From Laetmonice hystrix (taxonomy: Eukaryota), in assembly GCA_965235115.1 (NCBI GenBank), contig OZ249436.1, positions 38,628,001 through 38,692,000 on the forward strand: 64,000 bases of DNA. The letters are read 5' to 3'. A program made the position numbers and the translations under genes. Positions 1-29,690 of the stretch are shown here, in pieces. Position 1 is the first letter of the stretch, and each line of letters opens with the position of its first letter. Below the pieces are notes generated by a model. That model ran no database searches and had not been told where the DNA came from. It saw only the letters and a list, made by a program, of their open reading frames with translations.

Positions 1-3000
1 TGTATTTAGTGAGATCCTGAAACATTGAGCGATACATCTTTGACGTTCCGGGAGAAAACGAAGTAGGTAGAAGTTAACCCGTACGTAAATCAAAATCTAT
101 CACAGTGGTTTTGGCCAGACGTGTACACTTACATAAAGGATTTCCGGCAACCTAGGATCAAGCAGTCGTGTCTCCTTCTTCAGTTTATCAAGGAAGGCCG
201 AGATAGCTCCTCTAAGACGGCCATCTTTCCTGATATTACGACAGAAAATGAGGCTGTACTATGATCGAGTTACATGTAATTTTCCACTTCCCTAATCCCC
301 AAACCCAGATCTGAGAATCAGTTGCTCTCCCATTAATATCTGCTCCTAAGTGATCCCTTATACTCCATACCCAGAGTGAGACTTATTAGGATATGTAGGT
401 CAGCATGACCCATAAAATCTCCTTTTATTCATGACATATAGTTTGATCACAAAGCCCAAGTATATTCAAGGAAAGCCTCCTGGGCAGCGTACCACAGGCG
501 GTTAACGTCGAAGGTTTTGTAGAGGAGTTTTCCAAGCTTCTTTCGATATTTCCTCGAATGTTTTTCTCTTTGTTCCAGATCCTTAAACACGGAGACGAAG
601 AACTGAAACGAGAATAAATAAATTGGATTTGTTTATCTTTTGGACTTTACTCCAGAATGTTATTAGGTTTCCAATAACGTTTACAATAGGCTGAAATCCT
701 TGGAAAGGGAAAGGATGACTCAACCAAACCTACCTTGAGACATCGGTTATATTCTTTTATCATCAGCAGCTCGATAAGCTCAAGTCCTCTGCGAATTGAA
801 AAAGAACGAATATAAAGTTTATAATAAATGAAGAAAAGAAATATTTTCATTAAGGCAACTAATATGCTTAGGAAATACAGGTATGTATTTTAAATGTGTC
901 CACTTTTACGTACTGTAGCTTGGCCTCTATGATGGCATTCGTCTCTGGACCTGGAGCATGCCGCTCTGTTTTACGCCACTTCTCGACTGTTGCCAGTAAC
1001 GCCTTAGAGTATTCTGTGAGCACATGGCAACTTTAAGTAAGTCATTCAGTGACGTAAGTCATTCAGTGACGTAAGTCATTAAGTGACGTAAGTCATTCAG
1101 TGACGTAACTCATTCAGTGACGTAAGTCATTCAGTGACGTAAGTCATTCAGTGACGTACGTCATTCAGTGACGTAAGTCATTCAGTGACGGGGTTTGTAT
1201 AATAGGAGCCTACAGACATACATGATGCGTGGCCGTAGGAAGGGTGGCAAAGGGGAACGATCCCTTTTAACCACCCCATAAAAACAGTTGCTCCAGATGG
1301 ATGGTTTGTGAAATCACCAGAAGATGATCAAAACAAACATTTAAAAGAGAGAGCGAGAAAGAAAGATTGTTCACCTATCCCCTGATCTGGAGGGAAGGGG
1401 ACGTCATTGTAGCCGTTGATGAGGTTGACGAGAGAGGATGTGATGAGGTGAAGTTCAGTACTGGCACCAAAGAAGCCGTACTTGACGAGACATATAGCCA
1501 GCCTCAGAACCTGAACAAGGCAAAGAGTTCGGTCAGGTTAGCTATACCTGAGTCTACCTTATGGCCCTCGCGAGATACGGTTCGGCGAGTTCAGGTTATT
1601 CAGCGTTTGGTTTCTATTTCGTGTCTATTATTACACAATCCTTGATGTCCAGCTCGGCTAGGTTGGATGTCATCAATTTGATTATTTTTACTTATGTTTG
1701 AGAACCCTAACACCTTGGCCACCCGGCTATCTCTCATTACTTTGCTGAGGTAACTATAGGCGTATACAATTGAAGTACTCTACCTCTTTGATGAGGACGT
1801 TTCTGCCCGGATTGGAAGCCACAAAGACCTTGTTCTCGCCAAGAAAAGCGAAAAGCCACACCCGCATTGTCGGAAAATGGGAATCAAAGTCGTGTGGAAC
1901 CTATAGGAATAACACACGCCACTAACGCACAAACATATTTAATGAGGTTAATTTTCACGTATTTCCATCCCACGAGTTTAGTTCATTGATTTTGTGCTCA
2001 TCAATACAGACTTACGTGGTCAGCCTCCGTTTGGCCGTAGTTTTCCACAGCGATTTCATCATAGACGAAGTTATTGGATGTTACCTCGATGATTGAGTAG
2101 TTGTCACCAACATCCAGGAAAAGACCTTCAAGAACAGAGTTTGTTTCTGTGAGTGTCTACCAAGCAGTGGTTCCTAAGTTTTTACAGGGAAGCGCGAGGT
2201 TGTCGGGAGGTAGGCCTACACACAGACACTTTCCCCAATGGTAAAACTTACCTATGAGTAAATCACAGAATGTAGCCCTGATTCGATCAGGTAAGACCTC
2301 TGAGCGCAGACCCAGGTAGGCGACCTCCCACGTGAAGAATTCACGGTTCCGTGTTATGACCTCTATAGCCACCTGGTTCCGGCCCTGGTTTAGTTTAAAT
2401 GAAATGAAATTTATTAATTATCTCAAGTTTAAAGATACTGCACATTTAGAAATTTGGTAAAAATCTTAATGCGACAATTGATTAAAATTATGATTCATTA
2501 AAAAGTAGGAGTTACTAGTAAATTACATATTAATTCATTTATTAATTAATTATTCATTTTGTTCACCAGAACAACTGACTAACTATTTATTTGGAGTAGC
2601 ATTTGTTGGCACACTATGATACTTCAGATCACGACTTTACTGTTTTACTTACGTAGCAAAGTTTTTTGTACAGAGCAAGCTGTCTCTCCAGGAACGAGTA
2701 GCACTCCTCGCTGTAGGTCGCGTTACTTGGCTAAACAAAATAATAATAAAATACAAAGTGAATCAATCCAATTTATATTACACTCCTTATAAAGTACATT
2801 ATTTTAATAGATCTACATCATTTAGTAGCTCTATTACTTGTGGTGTCAGTTTTGTGTTAATTATATACAAGTCTTGAAAGAAGGTCAATTAACTGCTTTC
2901 ATAAATATCTCGTTCTGGTGTTCGATGCCCATATTGCGTGTTACTATGACGTCAACATAAGACAGTAGGTGTATCATATAGACCCAGACACCGTGATCTT

Positions 3001-6000
3001 AGCAAGCTCACGTAGGTAAAGGTGTGCAGAGTAAGCCATGTGGTCCTGTTGTTGGTGGACACATAAAGTCTGTCAGTCTGCTTCCCTATGTCCTGTCCAA
3101 TCTCGATATGGTACACGCAATCCTACAGTAAGAGAATAACATATTAATGACAAGGCCTTGATGAAGGGTTAAAGAGTATAATATTTTAAATGCTGAGTGA
3201 TGGACGTAGTCTAGGGCCTAGTATAGAATCGGTGCCATCGATGAGTTCAGACTTTACCTTTCGTTTCTGGAGTAGGTTGACGGAGATCTGTGTCTGGTTT
3301 TCGGTCATGGCGATTCCGTTACACACGCTCACCACGCCGAGAAGGTCGAGATAGAGATAATGCTGAAACACGGATACAAGACTGCACGTCGGAGAGGGTC
3401 AAGATAAAGATAATGCTGCAACACGGATACAAGACAGTACGTCAGAGAGGGTCGAGATAAAGGTAATGCTGCAACACGGATACAAGACTGCACGTCGGAG
3501 AGGGTCAAGATAAAGATAATGCTGCAACACGGATACAAGACTGCACGTCGGAGAGGGTCAAGATAAAGATAATGCTACAACACGGATACAAGACTGCACG
3601 TCGGAGAGGGTCAAGATAAAGATAATGCTACAACACGGATACAGACAGCACGTCAGAGAGGGTCGAGATAAAGATAATGCTACAACATGGATACAAGACT
3701 GCACGTCGGAGAGGGTCAAGATAAAGATAATGCTGCAACACGGATGCAGACAGCTTGTCAGAGAGGGTCAAGGAAAAAGGACGGTCGTGGCAGCTATCCA
3801 ATCAACAACTTCCTTAAAAAATACCTTTCATCGATAACAAATGGGACAACAAATTCCAGCAGTGTGCTAACTTAGATATTGCATTTGCCAGGCATGGTTC
3901 CGTGCGTTATGCCCTAAATAAAGTCTCGGCTACGCCTCGATCCTATGCCCTAAATGAAGTCGTAGACACAATAGTGAAAGTAAATATTAAAATATACATT
4001 TTTAAAAATGTGTTTTATTAGCACCTTTTGTTCTCTCAGAAGACCGATGATATCGTCAATCTGTTTCCCGGTGATACGATCCACAATTTTCCGATTGTCC
4101 CGGAGCAGTTCGATCAACATCTGACAACTCTGCAGCCCTACTCCACCCTACACACCAAAACAATGACGCCACTTTAAACTGAAAATGATCATTCATCTAG
4201 AATGACACCTAGGCCTATAGCCATAGTTATATCGCCTGCTGAAAGACATTGCTGAAACAACCTCTTAGTGAGCAGGCTATCTCGATGTGACTTTGATAAC
4301 ATTAAGTGTGTACATATATGGTTCCAGTAAACCGAGTATCGAGTACGCTTTATTCTGAAATTCCATATTGAATTGGGGTATATTAATAAAACATAGATTT
4401 GTGGATGGGAATAGATTATCAGTACTTACCTTTGCCAAGAGCGTAGAGAAGAAGAAGACAATATATTTGGCCATGTACAAGGCATTCTTCTTACTACGTC
4501 CCATCACGTAGCAGTGCAGAACCTCGTATATGGAGCGGAACACCTAGGATTCGCAGGCATGAGATATGTTACATATTTATCACTGAGGTGTTCTTATAGA
4601 TAAGCATGACCAGGCTGGCAGTATCTGGCAGGTTTTTCACAGACAGTACCGTTAATTTTCTGTAACAGCACAAACCTGGGTGAAGTGAGTAAAATCCTTG
4701 AGGCCTTCATGTAACGGCGATCTCAGCAGGTCGACCATCACGTCGACTAACTAATAAAAACAACCAAAAAGGGGAAATTAATAATAAAATAAGGGATGTC
4801 AGGAATTTAAAATGGCATTCAGATATGAATTTAGAAAGGAATATTCCTAATTTCGTTAGTTCTTTTCACACATAATTATACAATCGCAATTGCGGCTCAG
4901 GACAGGGGCTAGAATCCCCTTACGTGTACATTTTTTTGTACTTTTTTCCTTTTTTTCTCATCGAACTTTCTTCCCCTTCTTTTTCTGTTCCCCCTTGGAC
5001 CTCTTTTCAAAAGTCCTGGCCCCGCCCATTTTATACAGTATGTTGCTTTAATGATTGGCAAGATTTTAAAGTATCATAGGGTTACCCTCAGATTCCGTAA
5101 GAGTTTCTGGTGATCCTTCTTCGGTGTACCCTTCTCCATGATGAAGGTTTTCAGTTCATGTAACGTCTACGAATAAAAAGAACATCGGTATGACTATGAG
5201 AGTATTACACTGATCAAGGCAGCCGGAACCGGGTGAGGGGTCATGGGGAACCCCTCCCCCCCCCCTCCAAAAAACCCTTTCAACCAAAAAAAAAAGGATA
5301 GTGTGTCATAATTTTGACTATCAATCTGACAGGCGCTACCCGTGTCAGCTCCGGATCCCACTTCCGATTGAGTATATATCACTTAAATTTTCCAACAGTT
5401 TATAAATATACAATATGGAAAGAAAGAAAATAATGTGTCCGCCAGCTAACATTTCTGCTGAACTTACGAAATGTATACTTTACAGTAATAGTTTGAGTCT
5501 TCCAATTTTAGTTTGAGGTGACCTTGTCTTAGAGAAGAAGAGAGAAACATGCTTACACCAATGATGCTCTGCGTCGACCTTGCATTCAGAAATACGTTTT
5601 CTTCCTTTCTCTATAAGCAAAAAATACACAATAATTCACAGCAGCAGCAAATGGGAGAGAAGTTTGTTAAGTGACTCTGAGGAACTGTTAACGCCAGAGG
5701 GCCGTTAGTGGGACGTACTGCCTGCGTGAGGTCCTTGAGGAAGGGCACCATCCCCGCCACGTAGTTAAAGTTGAACCAGTCTGAGGGCGCCACCTTCTGG
5801 ATGGTGTAGGCGTCAGGGTAACGTCGGGAACTGCTGCCTATCACCTGTACACGGGAAAATATACTGACATAACTCAACTCGGCTTCTTCCCAGGGACAGG
5901 CTTTATTTTGATGTCACTTTTTAATCGTTTACGATCTGTGTAATAGTTTTTAGGCGTTTCCCGTACTTGTATGCACTTTCCTTTTACTAATCATCAAATT

Positions 6001-9000
6001 GATATTTAGATTTATAAAAATGTTATCGTTATTTAAGGGTCTTACCTTCAGCAACGTGGCTCCATCCCATCTCAAGGCGTGCAGGTCGGAGCTCTCCTCA
6101 TCTTGGCACTGCTGACGTTCATACGTATCATCTGTTAACCACAGTTCGAATGGTTAGAAACTCAATTTGTCATGTACGTATCATAATTAACCACAGTTCG
6201 ACTGGTAAAACTCAATTTGTCATGTACGTATCATCTGTTAACCACAGTTCTAACAGTCAGAAACAATATCATTTGTTAACCACAGTTCTAACAGTCATAG
6301 AGCCAATATCATGTGATATAGGTAACCACAGTTCTAACAGTCGGAGACCCGATTTGTTAGGTATGTATTATCTGGCATCCACAGTTCTAACGGTCAGACA
6401 CACAATAGACCATGTATCCGGTGTATATCATCTATCAACCATATCAAAATAACCCGACAGACTCTTGGCGTTTCCTTGGTACCAGTATTACTAGCATTGA
6501 CTTTAGAGGAACTTATTCATCAAGAGACATTATTCATCATTCTTCTCTTTCCTCCTTCTCTGTTGTTATAAGTGTTTTGATATTGCGCACCTATCGGTCC
6601 ATGCAACCAACACCCCGATAAGACATGCTCAATGCGGCAGTCACTTCCACAACTGATATTCATATTCTGTGGTTTCTGAAAGCATTCAATGGGGAAAACA
6701 TATCAATTTAGAGCATTTCTTAAACCTAATGGATAAACACACTTTCGCTTACTTACGATTTACTTATGACTGTGTGTCTTCTCAAATTTAGGGTAATTAT
6801 AGAGTCTGACCTGGGATAGCGAGTACACCCTGAACACTGCCCTGGGGTCACAGCCGTCGGTGGTCAGCGCCACCTGGCCGTCGTCACTGATATACAGGTA
6901 TCGACGTGTGGTCATGTGACGAAACCTGACCGAGTCGTCCCAGTGGAGAACACGTCCGTCTAGGATACTGGTGGCGGCCTCTAGCTGCCAGTACGTGATA
7001 CCAGAACGAGGTTTGTACAGGGTACGAGGGTCGTTCGGGTTGATTTCACGCACCCGCAGGTGAACTGTGGAAAGGAAGGGAATAATTATGTTATTATGTG
7101 AAAAATTTGAGATCCGGCGGAAGCTTGAGAGTGAAGTAATGTGATTGGGAACCAGACAGGAAATGATCAGTGATGATTCTTTGATTTGTGAGGAATCGGC
7201 ACTGAAAAACAGTAAACATTATTACTCATGGGTGAATTGATAAAATTGTTTCTTACTTTTATACTTCATTCATTCTGCATGTAATTCTGCATTCATATAA
7301 ATATAGCTTTTCAACACATGCATCCAAATTATATGTATGGATTAACATTTCTCGTAAAAATGTACAGATATAGAGTAAGTGATATATTAGGTACCATTTT
7401 CTGTTGGTTCCTCCCCAAAGACTCCTTCCGCTGTCAGGAATGCTTCGATGTCTTTGTGAAACAGGCGTACCACATGACCGCCCTGCAGAGATAAACCACT
7501 CGTCAGACCAGCGACTACATTCTCGGTAACATTTATTAAAGTGTAGCCAATTTATTTCTTCACTTCTTTCTTAAAGTACTCTTGTGTATATTTCAGCTAA
7601 AATACATATTGATGTTATTCGAGACTTACCCTGACCAGTCCCTCCGTGTCATGATCAGGACTGGAGTGTTTGACCCAGGTAAAACTGGAACGATCTACTC
7701 CAAGGTTGAGTTCCGAGCTGCCAGAACATGAAGAGGGAAAAATATTCAATATTTGTTTGTTTTTTTTTTAAAAAAAGGTCTCAACTGATGTGAGAGAGAC
7801 AAGTATCAATGATGGCTTCAAGAAGACACATTGAGAATCCATACCCGAATGTGAAGTGGTCAATCTGGTAAGGGTCACTGGCGTGTAAGTAGCATCCAGC
7901 TGATTTTGCACTCTCAAAGGTGACCTGGTCGTAATTTTCAATCTGGAATACAAAACAACACGGCTTAAAAAAAGTCCTTATTTCTTATCATCAAAAATTA
8001 GAATGAGCTTAGACATCGAGTTAACAAAAGTCATTATGATATAAGTTTACTTACGAATTCTCCCTCCACCTTCACCTTGTAGCTCGGCAGGATTCTGAAG
8101 AGGGCGTTCTTGGAGGTGTGAGACTCGAGGCTAACCTGAAATACAACATACAAAAATACGATAAACATGAACACTTTTTGGACGGAAAAGGTAGCGGTAA
8201 TAAGGAACAAGCTAACCTACCATCATTTTACTTTTGTCGACATCACTCGTCTCCGACGTGCTCACGTGGATGAACTTGTTGGTGAACATGTGCCGGAGCT
8301 AGAAGGTAAGGTCAGCAATCGGTAAGTTCGGAATGTTTACAAGCTGTGTGTCAAGACATAATGTATTGGTAGTGTCCTCTGATAGCAACAAAACACTCCC
8401 TACCTGAATGATGTCTTCGGATAACAACAGAACGCTCCTTACCTGGATGGTGTAACAACAGAACGCTCCTTACCTGGATGGTGTAACAACAGAACGCTCC
8501 TTACCTGGATGGTGTAGCAACAGAACGCTCCTTACCTGGATGGTGTAACAACAGAACGCTCCGTACCTGGATGGTGTAACAACAGAAACTCCTTACCTGG
8601 ATGGCGTAACAACAGAGCGCTCCTTACCATGGATGCATGGTGTCCCCTGTTAACAACAACGTGCTCCTTACCTGGATAGTTTTCCTGATAACAACAGAAC
8701 GCCCCTTACCTGGATGGTGTCCCTGGATAACAACAGAACGCTCCTTACCTGGATGGTGTCCCTGGATAACAACAGAACGCTCCTTACCTGGATGATGTCC
8801 CTGATAACAACAACACGCTCCTTACCTGGACGGTGTCCCCAACAACAGAACGCTCCTTACCTGGATGGTGTCCCCAACAACAGAACGCTCCTTACCTGGA
8901 TGGTGTCCCTGGATAACAACGCTCCTTACCTGGATGGTGTCCCTGATAACAACAACACACTCCTTACCTGGATGGTATCTCCGTAGCGGACCCGTTTCCC

Positions 9001-11773
9001 TTGAAGCCGGATCTGTTCAGCCTCGTTGTCCTGCCGTTCGCACTCAGCTGCCACCTGCAGGATAAGTTCATCATCACCGAACAATGATGATCGGTGTTGC
9101 CGACCGAGAGCGCACATATTAATAAAACAGACGCCCGATATTGTATAGGTAAGGCCGACTATTTGTTATCTTCATAGCATACACTGTCCATTGATTTATC
9201 TTTTTAACAATTTTTGACTGGGTTTTCTTGGTAATGAAGAAAGTGGTACAGATGGCACAGATAAAAAATAAAGAAAAGTGCGCTGACCTTGGCTACTGCC
9301 AGGGCCTTCTTGAGGTCCTCGTCATCCGGGTAGTCTCCATGGGCCTCCAGCAGATTCTTGTACTTTTTGGTCAGTTTGTACCGGTTCTGGGACACCACCC
9401 GGAATGTTACGGCTGTAAGTAAAGTTAAGAACGTCTTGGTTAGTTTGTACCGGTTCTGGGACACCACACGGAATGTTACGGCTGCAAGTAAAGTTAAGAA
9501 TCTAATGGTTAGTTTGTACAGGTTCTGGGACACCACACGGAATATGACGGCTACAAGTAAAGTTAAGAATCTATTGGTTAGTTTGTACCGGTTCTGGGAC
9601 ACCACCCGGAATGTGACGGCTGCAAGTAAAGTTAAGAATCTAATGGTTATTTTGTACCGGTTCTGGGACACCACACGGACTGTGACGGCTGCAAGTAAAG
9701 TTCAGAACCTCTTGGTTGGTTTGTACCGGTTCTGGGACACCACACGGAATGTGACGGCTGCAAGTAAAGTTCAGAATTACTTGGTTAGTTTGTACCGGTT
9801 CTGGGACACCACACGGACTGTGACGGCTGCAAGTAAAGTTAAGAAGTTACGAAACTCTTTGTTGGTTTGTACCGGTTCTGGGATACCACACGGAATGTGA
9901 CGGCTGTAAGTAAAGTTAAGAACGTTTTAGTTAGTTTGTACCGGTTCTGGGACACCACACGGAAGGTGACGGCTGTAAGTAAAGTTAAGAACGTTTTGGT
10001 TAGTTTGTACCGGTTCTGGGACACCACACGGAATGTGACGGCTGCAAGTAAAGTTACGAAACTCTTGGTTGGTTTGTTCTGGGACACCACACGGAATGTG
10101 ACGGCTGCAAGTAAAGTTACGAAACTCTTGGTTGGTTTGTTCTGGGACACCACACGGAATGTGACGGCTGCAAGTAAAGTTACGAAACTCTTGGTTGGTT
10201 TGTTCTGGGACACCACACGGAATGTGACGGCTGCAAGTAAAGTTAAGAATCTATTGGTTAGTTTGTACCGGTTCTGGGACACCACACGGAATGCTACGGC
10301 TGCAAGTAAAGTTACGAATCTCTTGGTTGGTTTGTACCGGTTCTGGGACACCACACGGAATGTGACGGCTGCAAGTAAAGTTAAGAATCTATTGGTTAGT
10401 TTGTACCGGTTCTGGGACACCACACGGAATGCTACGGCTGCAAGTAAAGTTACGAATCTCTTGGTTAGTTTGTACCGGTTCTGGGATACCCAGGCACGTA
10501 CCCAGGATTGTGCTTAGAGGGGGGTTCCATCAGGACGAGAGGGCTGCCCGGGGGCTACCTGTGTTTTTGCACCAGTCGACCTGGGGACCGGAGGGGGCCG
10601 GGGGGGGGGTTCCGGAACCCCTGGAACCCCCCCCCCTGGGTACGTGCCTGATACCACACGGAATGTGACGGCTGTAAGTAAAGTTAAGAACGTTTTGGTT
10701 AGTTTGTACCGGTTCTGGGACACCACACGGAATGTGACGGCTGTAAGTAAAGTTAAGCACGTTTTGGTTAGTTTGTACCGGTTCTGGGACACCACACGGA
10801 CTGTGACGGCTGCAAGTAAAGTTAAGAACCTCTTGGTTAGTTTGTACCGGTTCTAGGACACCACTCGGAATGTGTTGGCTGCAAGTAAAGTTAAGAACCT
10901 CTTGGTTGGTTTGTTCTGGGACACCACACGGAATGTGCCGGCTGCAAGTAAAGTTACGAAACTCTTGGTTGGTTTGTTCTGGGACACCACACGGAATGTG
11001 ACGGCTGCAAGTAAAGTTAAAAATCTATTGGTTGGTTTGTACCGGTTCTGGGATACCACACGGAATGTGACGGCTGTAAGTAAAGTTAAGAACGTTTTGG
11101 TTAGTTTGTACCGGTTCTGGGACACCACACGGAATGTGACGGCTGCAAGGAGTGTGGAGGAGGGCGGTCAAGGTTGGCCGTATACGCTAGTGCGGGAAGG
11201 GCTACGGGTGGGGATTATGTACAGGGTAAGACCTACTGCCCTCAACCGAAAGTATCACCTAATCCACCCTGTTCCTGAGGACAATCTCTATATTGTTTGG
11301 AAAAGAAAGGTTGTTTTAAGAGTTTCTATATAAGGGCATTCACACTAAACTCCATTCATTTTCGTCTTTTGTTCGTATTCGATACAATAGGGCTGACATA
11401 AAGCACTCCTCATTCCGAACAAGGTTTACATAATTCAACTTAAATGGGAAATATTATAATAAAAACTGAGGTCTCGATATCATGTTGTTTCTGCACTTAC
11501 CGTGAATATTAGGAATCCCAACTGGACAACCACGGTCCTGCCCCGTGTACACAAATAATCCACTTTTGGCTATGCTGATAAAAAAAAGAAAATATATATA
11601 TTATTATCCAGTATCATGCATGGTTTTTACTGAAAGAAGTATCTCTTATTGGAAAGTCGTAGCTTATAGTAGAGTATTTAGGTAACTAACCTGGTCTTGT
11701 CACTGTTGACGTAGCCACCTGTGTCTTCACAATAGAGACATATGATATCGCCCATACACATGAACTCCGCCAT
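1..11773 (-). CDS. ITPR-like: Divergent inositol 1,4,5-trisphosphate receptor-like (IP3R/RyR superfamily) Ca2+-release channel, N-terminal ~989 aa (suppressor/MIR/RIH region), 30 coding exons, 3' end outside the window
   Basis: Hand-spliced exons, GT-AG and phase-consistent: 11691-11773 (ATG; MAEFMCMGDIICLYCEDTGGYV), 11501-11574, 9288-9412 (FRVVSQNRYK), 8968-9054 (RVRYGDTIQ), 8221-8298 (LRHMFTNKFIHV), 8055-8135, 7845-7942, 7630-7717, 7395-7482 (GGHVVRLFHK), 6811-7064 (WDDSVRFRHMTTRRYL), 6591-6675, 6046-6131, 5719-5844, 5557-5610, 5086-5166 (HQKLLRN), 4676-4750, 4430-4543, 4025-4147 (LLRDNRKIVDRIT), 3258-3362 (YLDLLGVVSVCN), 3012-3122, 2653-2730 (RQLALYKKLC), 2252-2384 (LPDRIRATFCDL), 2016-2125, 1784-1900, 1375-1510, 914-1013, 734-788, 493-602, 133-229, 1-16 (partial). 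The motifs are collinear with remembered IP3R motifs (FLHIGDICSLY, FKLCPMNRY, YGNVIQLLH, GGDVVRLFH, RQKLMRE, LLHNNRKLLE, FLDYLSDLC, QLNLFARMC, LPYDLRASFC). Confidence 0.93.
1037..1190. repeat. 17-bp tandem repeat (GTAAGTCATTCAGTGAC) x ~9, intronic
   Basis: Near-perfect copies read directly; the array ends about 22 nt from the exon-26 acceptor (1014-1015). Confidence 0.95.
3345..3772 (-). repeat. 53-bp tandem repeat x ~8 built from the exon-19 acceptor and exon start
   Basis: Minus-strand unit ...cttgtatccgtgttgcAG|CATTATCTTTATCTTGACC; AG dinucleotides at 3363, 3416, 3469, 3522, 3575, 3628, 3680, 3733. Confidence 0.93.
6120..6395 (-). repeat. Degenerate ~45-52-bp tandem repeat containing the exon-12 acceptor
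   Basis: Recurrent TAACCACAGTTC core; full copy of gttaacAG|ATGATACGTA at 6235 in addition to the used acceptor at 6132. Confidence 0.8.
8395..8978 (-). repeat. 31-39-bp tandem repeat x ~17 built from the exon-4 donor site
   Basis: Minus-strand unit GTAAGGAGCGTTCTGTTGTT(ATCCAGGG)ACACCATCCAG; the junction matches the true exon-4 end ACCATCCAG|GTAAGG at 8968. Confidence 0.95.
9368..11148 (-). repeat. 69-bp (63-bp variant) tandem repeat x ~24 built from the exon-3 acceptor and first ~47 nt of the exon
   Basis: Unit ttcttaactttacttgcAG|CCGTCACATTCCGTGTGGTGTCCCAGAACCGGTACAAACTAACCAA; 69-nt spacing between AGs at 9413 and 9482; explains the repetitive ORFs at 9204-11333. Confidence 0.96.
10491..10650. 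mobile_element. 160-bp MITE (hAT5-like, 5-bp TSD) inserted in the 69-bp array
   Basis: Perfect TIR CAGGCACGTACCCAGG...CCTGGGTACGTGCCTG; TSD ATACC on both sides. Confidence 0.92.
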
Positions 11774-12424: not shown

Positions 12425-13347
12425 TAATACCCTAGTCACACTAGAGGCGGAATGAGCCAGAATGCTGTCGGAATGAAAATTCTTGGTATATTCCTGGATA
12501 TTCGAAGTGCATTCTAAAAGTTCTGACTGCATTCTGAGTGCATTCCAAATATTCGGGCCCATTCTTGTGGCCGGCCCGAATGTTTTGCTCATGCTCAAAA
12601 CTTTCGAGGTGCATTCGAAGGGGAAAAATATCGAACGGCATTCGAAGTGTATTCTAAATGCACTCTGACTGCATTCTAAATATTCTTACGGCATTCCAAC
12701 AGCATTCGAAACATTCTGATCGCATTTGAGGCAGAATCGAAACGGCAAGCCACTTCAAATCCTGCCAGAATGTCCCGAATGCGCCTCGAATGAGCCGGAA
12801 TGCACCTCGAATGCATCTCGATTGCTGCCGGAATCTATACTCGGACATTCGTGTTACATTCTAAGTACATTCGAAGTGCATTCTAAGTGTTCGAGCTGCA
12901 TTCTGTTTGAATATTTGGACGTTCGAACCATATTCGGCAGCCATTCCGGGAGCGTTCTGACTGCATTTGAGGTTAATTCGTACAGCATGCGAGGCACCTT
13001 CCATCCAGACATCGGGCGGTATTTGGGCAGCAATCGAACCGCACTCGTACGGCATTCGAGGTGCATTCTAAATATTCTGACTGCATTCTAACAATATTCT
13101 AAATATTCCTACTGTGTTCCAACTACATTCAAGCTGCATTCGAGCTAATACACCCGGAATGTGCAAGAATCATTCGAGGCGGGTTCGAAGCGCATTCTAA
13201 GTATTCGAACGCTATTCTTACAAAGCTGTAAGAATTTTGGTCAATTTGAAATTCCCTCCCGAATGTGACACGAATTTTGAGAATTCTCCATTCCGGCTGG
13301 TTCTGCTTGATTCCTGCTGATTCCGAATAAGTGTGACGGGGGTATTA
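12425..13347. mobile_element. Non-autonomous DNA transposon rich in GCATTC/GAATGC/TTCGAA motifs (possibly Harbinger-like)
   Basis: Inverted termini TAATACCCTAGTCACACT...AGTGTGACGGGGGTATTA; interior made of dense short motif repeats in both orientations. Confidence 0.8.
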
Positions 13348-23852: not shown

Positions 23853-26696
23853 CCGGTGTGATATGAAAATTGGACCCCCCATATTATGGACCCCCGGTCC
23901 ATATTTCATAGTGACATTTGGACCCCCCGGTCCATATTTCACTATGAAATATGGACTCCCCCCATGAAATATGGACCCCCCTCCGATTTTTTGTTCACTT
24001 TATGGACAATGATTAACCAACCACGGGAAAGCATTATTGGGGTTGAGATGACAATGAGCAAGGCGTTGATTGCGGCACGTGCCTCAAGTTTGGTCAGCAA
24101 CTACCGCGCACCGTACCTATACAATGGTCGTATGGCCAGTGGCGGATCTAAGGGTAACAACTTAAAATGTAACGTTGAATGTTCATAGGATAATCGAAAG
24201 CAATTTCTTTATAAATGGTCATGTTAGTCGGAATATAGTCGGAATATAGATATGGAAGCCTCTCATTGGGGGGAATTTTCACTAGGTGACTATGCACACC
24301 CCGCCCCCCAATCCGCATATATATTGTCGCCGTGCAAATATTGTCGCCGCCGACAAAATATGCACGGCGACAATATATGCCGTAACATACCTCTCATTCT
24401 GGGGGGGGGGGGGTCCATATTACACTATGAAATTTGGACTCCCCCCCCCCCCCAATCTCTAGGTGACTATGGAACCCCTCCCCCCAATCTCTCAGTGAGC
24501 TGGTATGAATATTGAACCCTCTCATTCTTGGGAGAGGGGTGTCCATATTACACTATGAAATATAGACCCCCCCCCCCAATCTCACAGTGAGCTGGTAGAA
24601 ATATGGGTACTTTGTTACGGTATATATTGTCGCTGTGCAAATATTGTCGCTGGCGAACATTGGCATATTTTCGCCGCCGACAAAATATGCCTTAACATAC
24701 CTCTCATTCTTCTGGGGGGGGGGGGTCCATATTACACTATGAAATTTGGTAACCCCCCCCCCCCAATCTCTAGGTGACTATGGCCACCCCCTCCCCTAAT
24801 CTCTCAGTGAGCTGGTATGAATATGGAACCCTCTCTGATTCTTCGGGGGGGGGGGGGGGGGGGGTCCATATTACACTATGAAATATAGACCCCCCAATCT
24901 CACAGTGAGCTGGTAGAAATATGGGTACTTTGTTACGGTATATATTGTCGCTGTGCAAATATTGTCGCTGGCGAACATTGGCATATTTTCGCCGCCGACA
25001 AAATATGCCGTAACATACCTCTCATTCTTCTGGGGGGGGGGGGGGGGTCCATATTACACTATGAAATTTGGTACCCCCCCCCCCCCCAATCTCTAGGTGA
25101 CTATGGCCACCCCCTCCCCTAATCTCTCAGTGAGCTGGTATGAATATGGAACCCTCTCTGATTCTTCGGGGGGGGGGTCCATATTACACTATGAAATATA
25201 GACCCCCCCCCTCAATCTCGCAGTGAGCTGGTATGAATATGGAACCCTCTCATTCTTCGGGGGGGGGGCATATATACACTATGAAATATGGACACTCCCC
25301 CCCTCCCATCTCACTTATTATTGGGGTTGAGAGGACAATCAACGATTTTTATATATGGCGGATGCAGTCGTGTCTACCTGTCACTGACTTGATTATATAT
25401 AAACTTAGTGTCAATTAGCAGGCAATTACAAAAGGGCCTAAAACAGTGATATAACTGGCATTGTGTTCTTAAACAAGTGAAGTGGCCTCCACCAAAGAGT
25501 GAAGTCCTTCTAGTAAGAAATTTGCTTTTCTTGCCAACAATTTAACCTCGATTTGTCAAAAGCCTCACTTATTATTGGGGTTAAAAGCAAGGGGTTGATT
25601 GCGGCACGTGCCTCATGTTTGGTCAGGAGCTACCGTGCACTGTACCTATACACTGTGCATACAATGGTTGTATGGCTCCGTTAACATCACTGTTAATACA
25701 AATTAGGTTCCATAACACTCACGTGTCCCACGTGTTTTCGCAATACGATGTAATGTTGTACTCAACAGAAGAGACTACGAATGTTTTTTTTAACGAAAAT
25801 ACATTAGGAGGAAACGTTTTTAGGATAGTCAAAAGCAAATACATGTATATATGGTGGACGGAAGCATTCGTGTCTCCTTGTCACTTATAGGTATTTGATT
25901 ATGCTCATTGTCAAAATATATTTGGAGCCTCCTATTTATAATAGAAATGATACTCCATGCGCGCATCCGGGGGGGGGGGGGGTCCAGGAGGTCCGGACCC
26001 CCCCCCCCTGCTCAGGACCAACTTAGGTTTTTGCTATGTTATTGGGGACTTTTTGGGGACTTTTTGCCCCCTCCTCCAGCGGCTCGCATCTTTCGGACCC
26101 CCCCCCCCCCCCTTGCAAAAATTCCTGGATCCGCGCCTGTAGGCCTACTCATACTCAGACATATCAGTTTGTCAAGGTTTCGCTCATCAAGATTTCAAGC
26201 TTTGAAGTATAGTCCATCGGGGCAACTTCCTTTAGTCGCTGGCTTTGGAAATAAACTGGGCAGATTAGCTGGGGTTGGGGGTGGGGAGGGGGTGGGTCCA
26301 CATTCCGCTATTTAAATTCGACCCACATCCCGGAAAAATAGAGGGATAACTTCAATATGCTACTCAAAGCTAGTAATATAATATAGCTCCTTTAACACAT
26401 TTATACTGTCATTAATTCAGGACCCAGCTGCCATAAACAATGTTGGATGAGTGGTGGGAGTCCAGGCTTAGGGCATGATGTAGGCCTAAATCCTAGGCCT
26501 ACTAATAAGTAACTTTTTTATGGAAACTGACAGAAATGATTGTTTTGTATAATATTGCTAGTTTGGCCAGTCATTGTATATAAAATAGAGGCAAAACGGA
26601 GGGGGGTCCATATCGTATGGGGGGAGTCCATATTTCACTGTGAAATATGGACCGGGGGTCCATATATTATGGGGGGTCCATTTTGCATCTCACAGG
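23853..26696. mobile_element. 2.8-kb non-autonomous TIR element with GGACCCCC/GGTCCATAT subterminal and internal tandem repeats
   Basis: Left CCGGTGTGATATGAAAATTGGACCCCCCATATTATGGACCCCCGGTCCATATTTCA; right end reverse complement CCTGTGAGATGCAAAATGGACCCCCCATAATATATGGACCCCCGGTCCATATTTCA; repeated modules at 24290-25310. Confidence 0.82.
25956..26139. mobile_element. MITE (5-bp TSD family) nested in the 23853-26696 element
   Basis: CA(T/G)GCGCG(C/G)ATCC...GGATCCGCGCCTG; left TSD TACTC, right copy reads TA-ggccta-CTC. Confidence 0.8.
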
Positions 26697-28019: not shown

Positions 28020-29690
28020 CCTCCAGTGGTTCTTGGCGAGGATTGTTGTATGTAAGTTCTAGTTGTAGTGGTTCTGGGCGGTGAGGTTCTGTGTATAGGG
28101 CTGTCCAGGCATTGGTTCTGGGCGATGAGGATGTGTGTAGGGGTGTCCAGGCATTGGTTCTGGGTGTGGGTGTTGTGTGTAGGGTTATTCAGACATTGGT
28201 TTTGAGAGTGGGTGCTGTGTGTTGGGTTGTCCAGGCATTGTTTCTAAGCGTGGGGGTTGTGTGCGTGGGTGTCCAGGCATTGGTTCTGGGCGTGGGTGCT
28301 GTGTGTAAGGTTGTTTAGACATTGGTTCTGGTCGTGGGTGCTGTGTGTTGGGTTTTCCAGGCATTGGTTCTGAGCGCGGGTGCTGTGTGTAGAGGTGTCC
28401 AGGCATTGGTTCTCAGCGTGGGTGCTGTGTGTAGGTGTGTCCAGGCATTGGTTCTGAGCGTGGGCGTTGTGCGTAGGGTTGTCCAGGCATTGGTTCTGAG
28501 CGTGGGTGTTGAGTGTAGGGTTATCCAGGCATTGGTTCTGAGCGTGGGTGTTGAGTGTAGGGTTGTCCAAACATTGGTTCTGGACGTGGGCGTTGTGTGT
28601 AGTATTGTCCAGGCATTGGTTCTGGGCGTGGGTGTTGTGTGCAGAGGTGTCCAGGCATTGGTTCTCAGCGCGGGTGTAGTGTTCCAGTGGCGATGGTTCT
28701 GAGTGAGGATATTGTGTGTGTGGGGGTGTCCAGGCATTGGTTCTGAGCGCGGGCGTTGTGTTAGTATTGTCCAGGCATTGGTTCTGAGCGTGGGTGTTGA
28801 GTGTAGGGTTGTCCAAACATTGGTTCTGGACGTGGGCGTTGTGTGTAGTATTGTCCAGGCATTGGTTCTGGGCGTGGGTGTTGTGTGTAGGGGTGTCCGG
28901 GCGTTAGTTCTAGGCGTGGGTGATGTGTGTTGGGTTGTCCAGGCACTGGTTCTAGGCGTGGGTGCTGTGTTGGGTTGTCCAAATATTGGTTCTGAGCGTG
29001 CGTGCTGTGTGTAGGGTTGTCCAGGCACTGGTTCTGGTCGTGGGTGTTGTGTGTAGGGTTGTCCAAACATTGGTTCTGGGCGTGGGTGTTGTGTGTAGGT
29101 GTGTCCGGGCGTTAGTTCTAGGCGTGGGTGCTGGTGTTGGGTTGTCCAGGCACTGGTTCTAGGCGTGGGTGATGTGTGTTGGGTTGTCCAGGCACTGGTT
29201 CTAGGCGTGGGTGCTGTGTGTTGGGGTGTCCAAACATTGGTTCTGAACGTGGGTGCTGTGTGTAGGTGTGTCCAGGCATTGGTTCTGAGCGTGGGTGCTG
29301 GGTGTAGGGTTGTCCAAACATTGGTTCTGAGCGTGGGTGTTGTGTGTAGGGCTGTCCAAGCATTGGTTCTGGGCGTGGGTGTTGTGTGTAGGTGTGTCCG
29401 GGCGTTAGTTCTAGGCGTGGGTGCTGTGTGTTGGGTTGTCCAGGCACTGGTTCTGAGCGTGGGTGCTGTGTGTAGGTGTGTCCAGGCATTGGTTCTGGAT
29501 GTGGGTGTTGTGTGTAGTTGTGTCCAGGCATTGGTTCTGAGCGTGGGTGTTGAGTGTAGGGTTGTCCACGCATTGGTTCTGAGCGTGGGTGTTGTGTGTA
29601 GGTGTGTCCAGGCATTGGTTCTGAGCGTGGGTGCTGGGTGTAGGGTTGCAGTGGCGATGGTTCTGAGTGAGGATGTCGTGTCTGGGTAAC
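28020..29690. repeat. 42-bp minisatellite x ~38
   Basis: Consensus CCAGGCATTGGTTCTGAGCGTGGGTGTTGTGTGTAGGGTTGT; minus strand translates as repeated QPYTQHPRSEPMPG. Confidence 0.95.

What the first reader, a model, noticed from the sequence alone, without database searches (positions are those of the whole stretch)
1037..11148. Tandem arrays in one gene are systematically built from its own splice sites
Seen: all five obvious tandem arrays in the ITPR-like gene lie on exon boundaries. Four are amplified copies of the junction itself (exon-3 acceptor x ~24, exon-4 donor x ~17, exon-12 acceptor degenerate, exon-19 acceptor x 8) and one abuts the exon-26 branch region. The units are unrelated to each other, so these are independent events. 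In each case only the copy touching the unique exon body gives the conserved protein. Inference: either a mutational process targets exon-intron junctions (splicing- or transcription-coupled duplication), or such arrays are tolerated or selected as banks of decoy or alternative splice sites that tune productive versus NMD-bound mRNA by copy number. Short introns make some boundary overlap likely by chance, so enrichment must be tested.
Basis: partly seen in the sequence, partly recalled or inferred. Interest (0 to 1): 0.88.

Follow-up and report, generated by a model that had tools for sequence, protein, structure and literature searches.

The report
Minisatellites that copy exon edges
In an invertebrate calcium-channel gene, and in many other genes of the same genome, short stretches at exon edges have been copied head-to-tail into stacks of spare splice sites, a kind of repeat already known from lancelets as a "mirage"; here the stacks look like by-products of repeat growth near exon edges rather than a splicing control device.

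Summary
In a 68-exon ITPR-like gene (minus strand, continuing 25 kb left of the window), four window arrays span a splice junction and a fifth ends 23 nt before one. They are lancelet-type 'mirages' (PMC3087553); this scan found such arrays before, in this and other genomes.

The edge bias is real but modest. In 35 held-out gene regions, 48 of 129 arrays span a junction (22.8 expected; 34.3 under a same-intron null) and 80 lie within 30 nt (38.4; 56.1). It is weak in short introns and vanishes if introns are capped at 200 nt.

Two-copy duplications show no bias (4 of 24; 6.3 expected); arrays of 8 or more copies do (47 of 64; 20.6). So the bias arises during growth or survival, not at birth. 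Arrays without a splice site are enriched too, unit lengths ignore reading frame, copies are weaker than real sites, and density is 6-9-fold higher within 3 Mb of contig ends.

Best reading: silent passengers expanded by recombination-type turnover at exon edges. A decoy/NMD bank is unlikely. Splicing itself could not be tested: no RNA run.

The parts
1..11773 (-). 5' part (exons 1-30) of a 68-exon ITPR-like gene; probable ATG at 11773; the gene runs on about 25 kb to the left of the window (L006-L008)
   Evidence: spliced alignment; homologues named ITPR-like; Pfam
9367..11149 (-). Exon-3 acceptor mirage: 69-bp unit (about 24 nt intron end + 45 nt exon start; 63- and 77-bp variants), 23 spare acceptors
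10491..10650 (.). 160-bp MITE-like insert inside the exon-3 array: 16-bp terminal inverted repeats, 5-bp target duplication; a 91% copy lies in L070
   Evidence: and the sequence
9288..9412 (-). Exon 3 (real acceptor directly upstream of 9412)
8968..9054 (-). Exon 4 (real donor directly after 8968)
8381..8981 (-). Exon-4 donor mirage: 31-39-bp unit (about 10-14 nt exon end + intron start), 15-16 spare donors; the six distal 30-31-bp copies also score as ordinary acceptors (AG|GT)
6122..6431 (-). Degenerate exon-12 acceptor mirage (about 50-53-bp unit); a second allele carries one more unit
6046..6131 (-). Exon 12
3339..3772 (-). Exon-19 acceptor mirage: 53-bp unit, 7 spare acceptors; the functional terminal copy differs from the homogeneous inner copies
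3258..3362 (-). Exon 19
1037..1190 (-). 17-bp x 9 intronic array ending 23 nt before the exon-26 acceptor; holds a branch-point-like motif (consensus recalled) but no junction
914..1013 (-). Exon 26

Best explanation
These are 'mirage' minisatellites: locally born tandem repeats that include or abut an exon edge and are probably silent for splicing. Step 1 (shown, small sample): short tandem duplications of 10-200 bp arise at roughly uniform positions in introns. Step 2 (shown as a pattern, cause inferred): those at an exon edge are far more likely to become long, homogeneous arrays. The likeliest cause is recombination-type turnover (unequal exchange or gene conversion). In this polymorphic sample exons are the stretches where two haplotypes still match, so repair tracts anchored in an exon run into the adjacent repeat and change its unit number, most often in regions near chromosome ends. 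Deletions that would remove an edge array are also limited on the exon side. Step 3 (inferred from human and lancelet cases): the spliceosome keeps using the copy next to the unique exon body, so arrays are tolerated; selection keeps the real site strong, lets copies decay, and keeps mainly shallow overlaps and strong donors.
For: Enrichment in held-out genes: 48 of 129 span a junction (22.8 expected, p=4e-8; same-intron 34.3, p=0.001); 80 of 129 within 30 nt (38.4; 56.1, p=2e-8); 20 of 26 array-bearing regions exceed expectation, p=0.009. It holds without the two densest genes. Copy-number gradient of edge arrays: 4/24, 12/26, 17/27, 23/31, 24/33 against 6.3, 7.8, 8.3, 9.7, 10.9; Fisher p=3e-6 for two-copy against 4 or more copies. 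Donor and acceptor sides alike (19 and 24 spanning; 14 and 16 abutting). Density 0.47 edge arrays per intron in 4 regions under 3 Mb from a contig end against 0.05-0.07 in 31 others; correlation with array-free intron GC rho=0.51, p=0.002. Dynein genes differ from 0 of 46 introns to 17 of 24, the two densest lying nearest contig ends. A length allele of the exon-12 array, 110 substitution rows and 33 indel rows in 4.6 kb; all 12 indels shown are intronic. No frame bias (18/18/15; nearest copy 6 open, 9 stop, 36 frameshift of 51). Real site stronger than the median copy in 27, weaker in 6, equal in 18. Spanned donors are stronger than other donors (9.7 against 7.6 bits, n=26 and 871, p=1.5e-5). 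An array also covers the gene's probable stop codon, an edge that is not a known splice site. Lancelet RT-PCR found normal splicing (PMC3087553); human F7 uses only the first donor (PMC1557585).
Against: No recombination map or pedigree was available, so the cause in step 2 is inferred. Arrays show no polarity (exon-side more homogeneous in 26, less in 24 of 52). The effect is weak in short introns (23 spanning against 20.1 in 40 arrays, p=0.2) and disappears if every intron is capped at 200 nt (59 against 51.4; 83 against 86.1). This gene itself is mid-chromosome yet dense (0.17 per intron); two dynein regions 5-6 Mb from an end have none; relative position does not correlate (rho=-0.02). The position signal rests on 4 regions. 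489 of 526 copies keep GT or AG, so leakage is possible, and two human cases use the two nearest copies (PMC1557585 Introduction). Exon models are predictions, refined with their own output.
Confidence: 0.6

Rival explanations
1. Survivorship only. Arrays grow at the same rate everywhere, but deep-intron arrays are removed by deletions and intron turnover, while an array touching an exon cannot be deleted whole without hitting the splice signals.
For: Predicts uniform births, a bias rising with copy number, symmetry of donor and acceptor sides, and hugging of any constrained edge; all seen. Indels between haplotypes are frequent in introns.
Against: The most diverged arrays (under 88% identity) are not enriched (6 of 17; 4.2 expected) while those of 94% or more are (45 of 63; 21.1); survivorship predicts the reverse, though the diverged class includes dispersed repeats. 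It does not itself explain the tenfold difference between regions.
Confidence: 0.2
2. Chance in short introns: any array in a 100-250-nt intron is near an edge, and long intron interiors are late insertions where arrays have not had time to grow.
For: Median collapsed intron 245 nt; no excess of spanning arrays in introns up to 200 nt; no excess when introns are capped at 200 nt.
Confidence: 0.08
3. Splicing- or transcription-coupled mutation (R-loops, polymerase pausing, RNA-templated repair) creates duplications at junctions.
For: Exon-facing ends peak just inside the exon (26 at -20..-1 against 9.2 expected). One array end sits exactly at a donor and several within 5 nt.
Against: Two-copy duplications are not edge-biased; ends spread from -68 to +30 rather than at the junction; dynein heavy-chain genes, most of which should be co-expressed in ciliated cells (general knowledge), differ from none to 0.7 per intron.
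Confidence: 0.06
4. Selected banks of decoy or alternative splice sites that tune productive against NMD-bound mRNA by copy number.
For: Copies mostly keep GT/AG (489 of 526); copy number is polymorphic at one array; four exon-3 copies are in frame and open; intronic tandem repeats act as splicing QTL in humans (PMC10078293, passages).
Against: No frame bias; copies weaker than real sites; arrays lacking a splice site also enriched; density follows position rather than gene type; none of 7 edge arrays of the 41%-identical paralogue shares a junction with the 11 of this gene (about 0.6 expected, so weak).
Confidence: 0.05
5. Assembly artefact.
For: No raw long read was seen spanning the three long arrays.
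Against: Copies differ by shared variants and by 63- and 77-bp sub-types; a MITE-like element with target duplication sits inside one array; run contigs carry the exon-12 array in two alleles; contig C1 has telomere repeats at both ends.
Confidence: 0.01

Closest known systems
Amphioxus 'mirages' (Adh3, globins BflGb6 and BflGb9, troponin C, PGBD5): PMC3087553 (passages), PMC3902484 (passages); the first description (Canestro 2002) was not held
   Same: Minisatellite-like tandem copies of 5' or 3' exon-intron boundaries, units 10-160 bp, many copies keeping AG/GT, length differences between haplotypes, homogeneous inner copies with a distinct terminal copy.
   Different: Not a Branchiostoma genome (a dynein exon is 76% identical to B. 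lanceolatum and 75% to Mytilus). The lancelet papers describe single loci and call the mechanism unclear; here the bias is counted over 897 introns and tied to copy number and position. Splicing outcome and somatic instability were not tested here.
Human donor-spanning VNTRs: F7 intron 7 (37 bp), CBS intron 13, 6-16, LAMIN B2, PDGF (PMC1557585, abstract and Introduction)
   Same: First unit spans the exon-intron boundary and reiterates the splice site; polymorphic copy number.
   Different: Those are scattered donor cases; here 56 of 1794 predicted junctions are spanned, acceptors as often as donors.
Internal tandem repeats that alter gene structure and intron gain by duplication of AG|GT (PMC2812944, outline and passages; Rogers model as cited in PMC3087553)
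   Same: Minisatellites at exon-intron boundaries; 11 of 26 donor arrays carry copies scoring as both acceptor and donor.
   Different: No new intron or exon is shown here; single exon-4 units (31-39 nt) are shorter than the shortest predicted intron (81 nt).

Membership tests
Mirage minisatellite | Head-to-tail repeat whose unit spans an exon-intron boundary | tested here: met
   4 of 5 window arrays, 8 of 13 in the gene; the 17-bp array does not meet it
Mirage minisatellite | Both 5' and 3' boundaries affected; units about 10-160 bp | tested here: met
   19 donor and 24 acceptor cases in held-out genes; window units 31-69 bp
Mirage minisatellite | Many but not all copies keep GT/AG | tested here: met
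   489 of 526 copies in 51 junction arrays
Mirage minisatellite | Length polymorphism between haplotypes | tested here: met
Mirage minisatellite | Concerted evolution of inner copies, boundary copy excluded | tested here: met
   By inspection of exon-3, -19 and -54 arrays; no tree built
Mirage minisatellite | Normal splicing at the copy next to the unique exon | not testable with these tools
   No RNA holder listed
Mirage minisatellite | Somatic instability | not testable with these tools
   Needs tissue-level long reads
Tandem exon duplication (mutually exclusive exons) | Whole exon with its own acceptor and donor is copied | tested here: not met
   Units hold one boundary and 1-68 nt of exon
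Mobile intron-like or transposon-derived repeat | Same unit dispersed at unrelated loci | tested here: not met
   Five window units matched only their own array in about 0.96 Mb of fetched DNA, bar one short hit; the exon-3 stretch matched only this locus in the genome search
Recursive splicing array | Acceptor directly followed by a regenerated donor (AG|GT) | tested here: inconclusive
   Absent from the three acceptor arrays; present by score in the exon-4 array and 11 of 26 donor arrays; use not testable

The most novel reading that the evidence does not exclude
In highly polymorphic marine invertebrates, conserved exons anchor repair between homologous chromosomes, and the fall in similarity at any coding edge (splice site or stop codon) pumps minisatellite growth. 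This would make mirages a genome-wide footprint of recombination, account for much intron length (arrays are 87 of 546 kb of the intron sequence sampled, 73% of it in edge arrays), and leave a few percent of junctions with polymorphic stacks of spare sites. Some of these, such as the four in-frame exon-3 acceptors, could leak and make copy number a splicing QTL and a source of new introns.
Probability: 0.25. Interest if true: 0.75.

Novelty: new member of a known kind. Interest (0 to 1): 0.42.

Why it matters
The structure itself has been known since 2002, but its origin is called unclear in the lancelet literature (PMC3087553). The counts here narrow the question: the bias appears during growth or survival of arrays, covers exon edges rather than splice sites as such, and is strongest near contig ends. 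That is directly testable with a whole-genome annotation, a linkage map and long-read RNA. Dozens of natural duplicated-acceptor arrays are also ready-made tests of 3' splice-site choice, and they mislead gene predictors into adding repeated peptides.

Tried and rejected
No RNA holder listed, so splicing is untested. Word-based homologue search with the MIR exon found nothing; the full phmmer scan did. A genome search with a full-length homologue did not complete twice, so other ITPR paralogues were not surveyed. A TGACG-like motif seen by eye in several units is not among the enriched 5-mers; the top one (CTCCC, 22 against 7.4 in 117 units) is confounded by regional GC. Polarity of homogeneity: none. 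End-phase tests were mixed: 15 of 42 edge arrays end within 2 nt of a whole number of units, but the preset window (-3..+12) was not significant, 16 against 12.9; the cruder test is unreliable. Acceptor scores had an off-by-one error and were redone. Microsatellite control too small (n=16). Searches for a genome-scale test of such arrays found only single-locus reports; the library lacks most subscription journals, two key papers were not held, and no supplements were read, so prior counts may exist. Human subtelomeric clustering of minisatellites and the 1986 duplicated-splice-site experiments of Reed and Maniatis are recalled; searches gave no usable passage.

Full report
Setting. The window is G000:C1:38628001-38692000 of a 627-Mb, 35-contig assembly; C1 has telomere repeats at both ends. 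The gene lies on the minus strand. An 85-aa exon finds ITPR-like proteins, named from molluscs, a nemertean, a flatworm and a hemichordate. I wrote a spliced aligner and aligned a profile of 15 such homologues to the window plus 26.5 kb to its left: 68 exons, no frameshift. A few exons in variable regions (about 8, 28-29, 39-40, 50, 56, 60-61) are uncertain; four shifted on realignment. The organism is not Branchiostoma: a dynein exon is 76% identical to B. lanceolatum and 75% to Mytilus. I did not place it further.

Observation. Four span a junction: exon-3 acceptor (24 sites in all), exon-4 donor (17), exon-12 acceptor (degenerate) and exon-19 acceptor (8). The 17-bp array ends 23 nt before exon 26. 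The units are unrelated. Two corrections: the gene's other half holds 8 more arrays (4 spanning, 2 within 30 nt, 2 deep), and the four nearest exon-3 copies are in frame and open, while all other listed copies give a stop or a frameshift. A 42-bp x 15 array also covers the probable stop codon; its unit resembles a donor, so an untranslated-region intron there is not excluded. An artefact is unlikely: copies carry shared variants, a MITE-like insert with a 5-bp target duplication interrupts one array, and run contigs show a second allele of the exon-12 array with one more unit (three runs, one sample, possibly the assembled one).

Enrichment test. I fetched 21 myosin, 13 dynein and 1 ITPR-paralogue regions, picked by family search or adjacency without regard to repeats, and annotated them the same way. 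Profiles were refined with their own predictions, so exon scores are partly circular. Counted: TRF arrays with period 10 or more, 2.5 or more copies and score 80 or more, between the first donor and last acceptor after trimming weak end exons; microsatellites, smaller repeats and arrays outside that span were left out. Null: collapse each array to one unit and place it uniformly over all intronic and junction-spanning positions of the gene, or of the same intron only. Result in 35 held-out regions: 48 of 129 span a junction (22.8 expected, p=4e-8; same intron 34.3, p=0.001) and 80 of 129 lie within 30 nt (38.4; 56.1, p=2e-8); 20 of 26 array-bearing regions, this gene included, exceed expectation. 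It holds without the two densest genes (27 of 84 spanning, 13.7 expected; same intron 20.8, p=0.04) and after collapsing degenerate copies. Against it: myosins alone miss significance for spanning under the same-intron null (12 against 9.0, p=0.14); in collapsed introns up to 200 nt spanning arrays are 23 against 20.1; capping all introns at 200 nt removes the excess, and a cap of 300 nt leaves only part of it. Across all 36 regions, 56 of 1794 junctions are spanned.

Where the bias arises. Two-copy duplications fit the uniform null (4 of 24 at edges, 6.3 expected); edge share rises with copy number to 23 of 31 and 24 of 33 (Fisher p=3e-6). So births look uniform and long arrays are edge-biased. 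Wholly intronic arrays within 30 nt are enriched about as much as spanning ones (30 against 14.2; 43 against 20.2). Exon-facing ends spread from -68 to +30 and peak at -20..-1; deep overlaps are not enriched (4 against 4.5). Density ranges from 0 to 0.71 edge arrays per intron, is 0.47 in the 4 regions under 3 Mb from a contig end against 0.05-0.07 in 31 others, and follows array-free intron GC (rho=0.51, p=0.002). This gene, mid-chromosome at 0.17, is an exception, and telomeres were seen only for C1.

Signs of function. None found. Unit length mod 3 is 18/18/15 in 51 spanning arrays. Use of the nearest copy would give 6 open frames, 9 in-frame stops and 36 frameshifts. The real site outscores the median copy in 27 arrays and is outscored in 6, though 489 of 526 copies keep GT or AG. 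Spanned donors are stronger than average, acceptors are not. The 41%-identical paralogue has 7 edge arrays, none at the same junction. No RNA holder was listed, so silence is inferred from lancelet RT-PCR (PMC3087553, passages; PMC3902484, passages) and human F7 (PMC1557585, abstract and Introduction); the same Introduction lists two human genes that do use nearby copies.

Mechanism. Shown: uniform births in a small sample, edge-biased long arrays, allelic length change at one array, high polymorphism (110 substitution and 33 indel rows in 4.6 kb; 7 of the 40 substitutions and none of the 12 indels shown fall in exons, which are 31% of the stretch). Inferred: recombination-type turnover anchored in exons drives growth. 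Minisatellites change length through mitotic and meiotic conversion (PMC5698624, passage), and local divergence between homologues shapes crossover position in Arabidopsis (PMC6307820, abstract); neither paper concerns these arrays. Protection from deletion on the exon side probably adds to this and could be the whole story; the lack of enrichment among diverged arrays argues mildly against that. No polarity and no clear motif were found.

Comparison and novelty. The arrays meet every mirage feature that could be tested; normal splicing and somatic instability could not be. They are not whole-exon duplications or dispersed mobile units. Six literature searches found single-locus reports only, within the limits of the library and without supplements. 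Earlier notes of this scan describe the same thing near the start of C1 and in annelid and sea-urchin genomes; one judged edge closeness in its stretch to be chance, which agrees with my short-intron result. Two ITPR-like ORFs from other organisms also show repeated exon ends (P0004, P0068).

Verdict. A real, known kind of repeat in a further animal group. The added value is the count: a 1.4- to 2-fold edge bias that appears with array growth, covers edges rather than splice sites alone, and is strongest near contig ends. Interest 0.42.

Noticed in passing
L006:7111-7670, L006:1201-1364, L007:4700-5613, L008:6909-7135: Four further junction-spanning arrays in the same gene: exon-38, -53 and -63 acceptors and exon-62 donor.
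   Followed up: yes
L006:367-968: 50-bp x 12 array copying the last 50 nt of the intron before exon 54; the copies lack the acceptor's final G and the exon's first base, so only the terminal copy has AG at that place.
   Followed up: partly
L008:4300-4940: 42-bp x 15 array whose unit covers the gene's probable stop codon; the unit also resembles a splice donor.
   Followed up: partly
L006:6162-6280: A perfect palindrome of about 60 bp followed by a 44-bp tandem duplication, near the uncertain exon 40; looks like a template-switch product.
   Followed up: no
window 10491-10650; L070:8527-8698: 160-bp GC-rich MITE-like element with 16-bp terminal inverted repeats and a 5-bp target duplication; one 91% copy elsewhere in fetched DNA.
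   Followed up: partly
L095-L091 and L011 (G000:C1:38520400-38572300, + strand): A tail-to-tail ITPR-like paralogue, 41% identical, 66 exons at mostly the same positions, with its own 14 arrays.
   Followed up: yes
L007:1-4700 and L008:7135-10000: Intron 62 is 8.6 kb with long open frames and internal repeats, probably an inserted transposon; not identified.
   Followed up: no
window 28069-29648: 42-bp x 38 array with strong strand skew; on the minus strand both ends read as open frames (Pro/Gln/Thr/His-rich), possibly a coding repeat.
   Followed up: no
window 24368-25305 and 12500-13330: A 318/93-bp repeat with G and C runs, and a patch of short degenerate 10-20-bp repeats upstream of the gene; probably transposon ends.
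   Followed up: no
L085-L087 and L079-L081: Two dynein heavy-chain regions 0.2 and 1.2 Mb from contig ends carry 27 and 12 arrays in 24 and 18 introns; L079-L080 also holds a 407-bp satellite.
   Followed up: partly
P0004, P0068: ITPR-like ORFs from other, unnamed organisms contain three to four tandem copies of an exon start or end, suggesting mirages there too.
   Followed up: no
L009-L011 (several places): A 22-bp AT-rich unit forms short arrays at several separate sites, a dispersed family unlike the locally born arrays.
   Followed up: no
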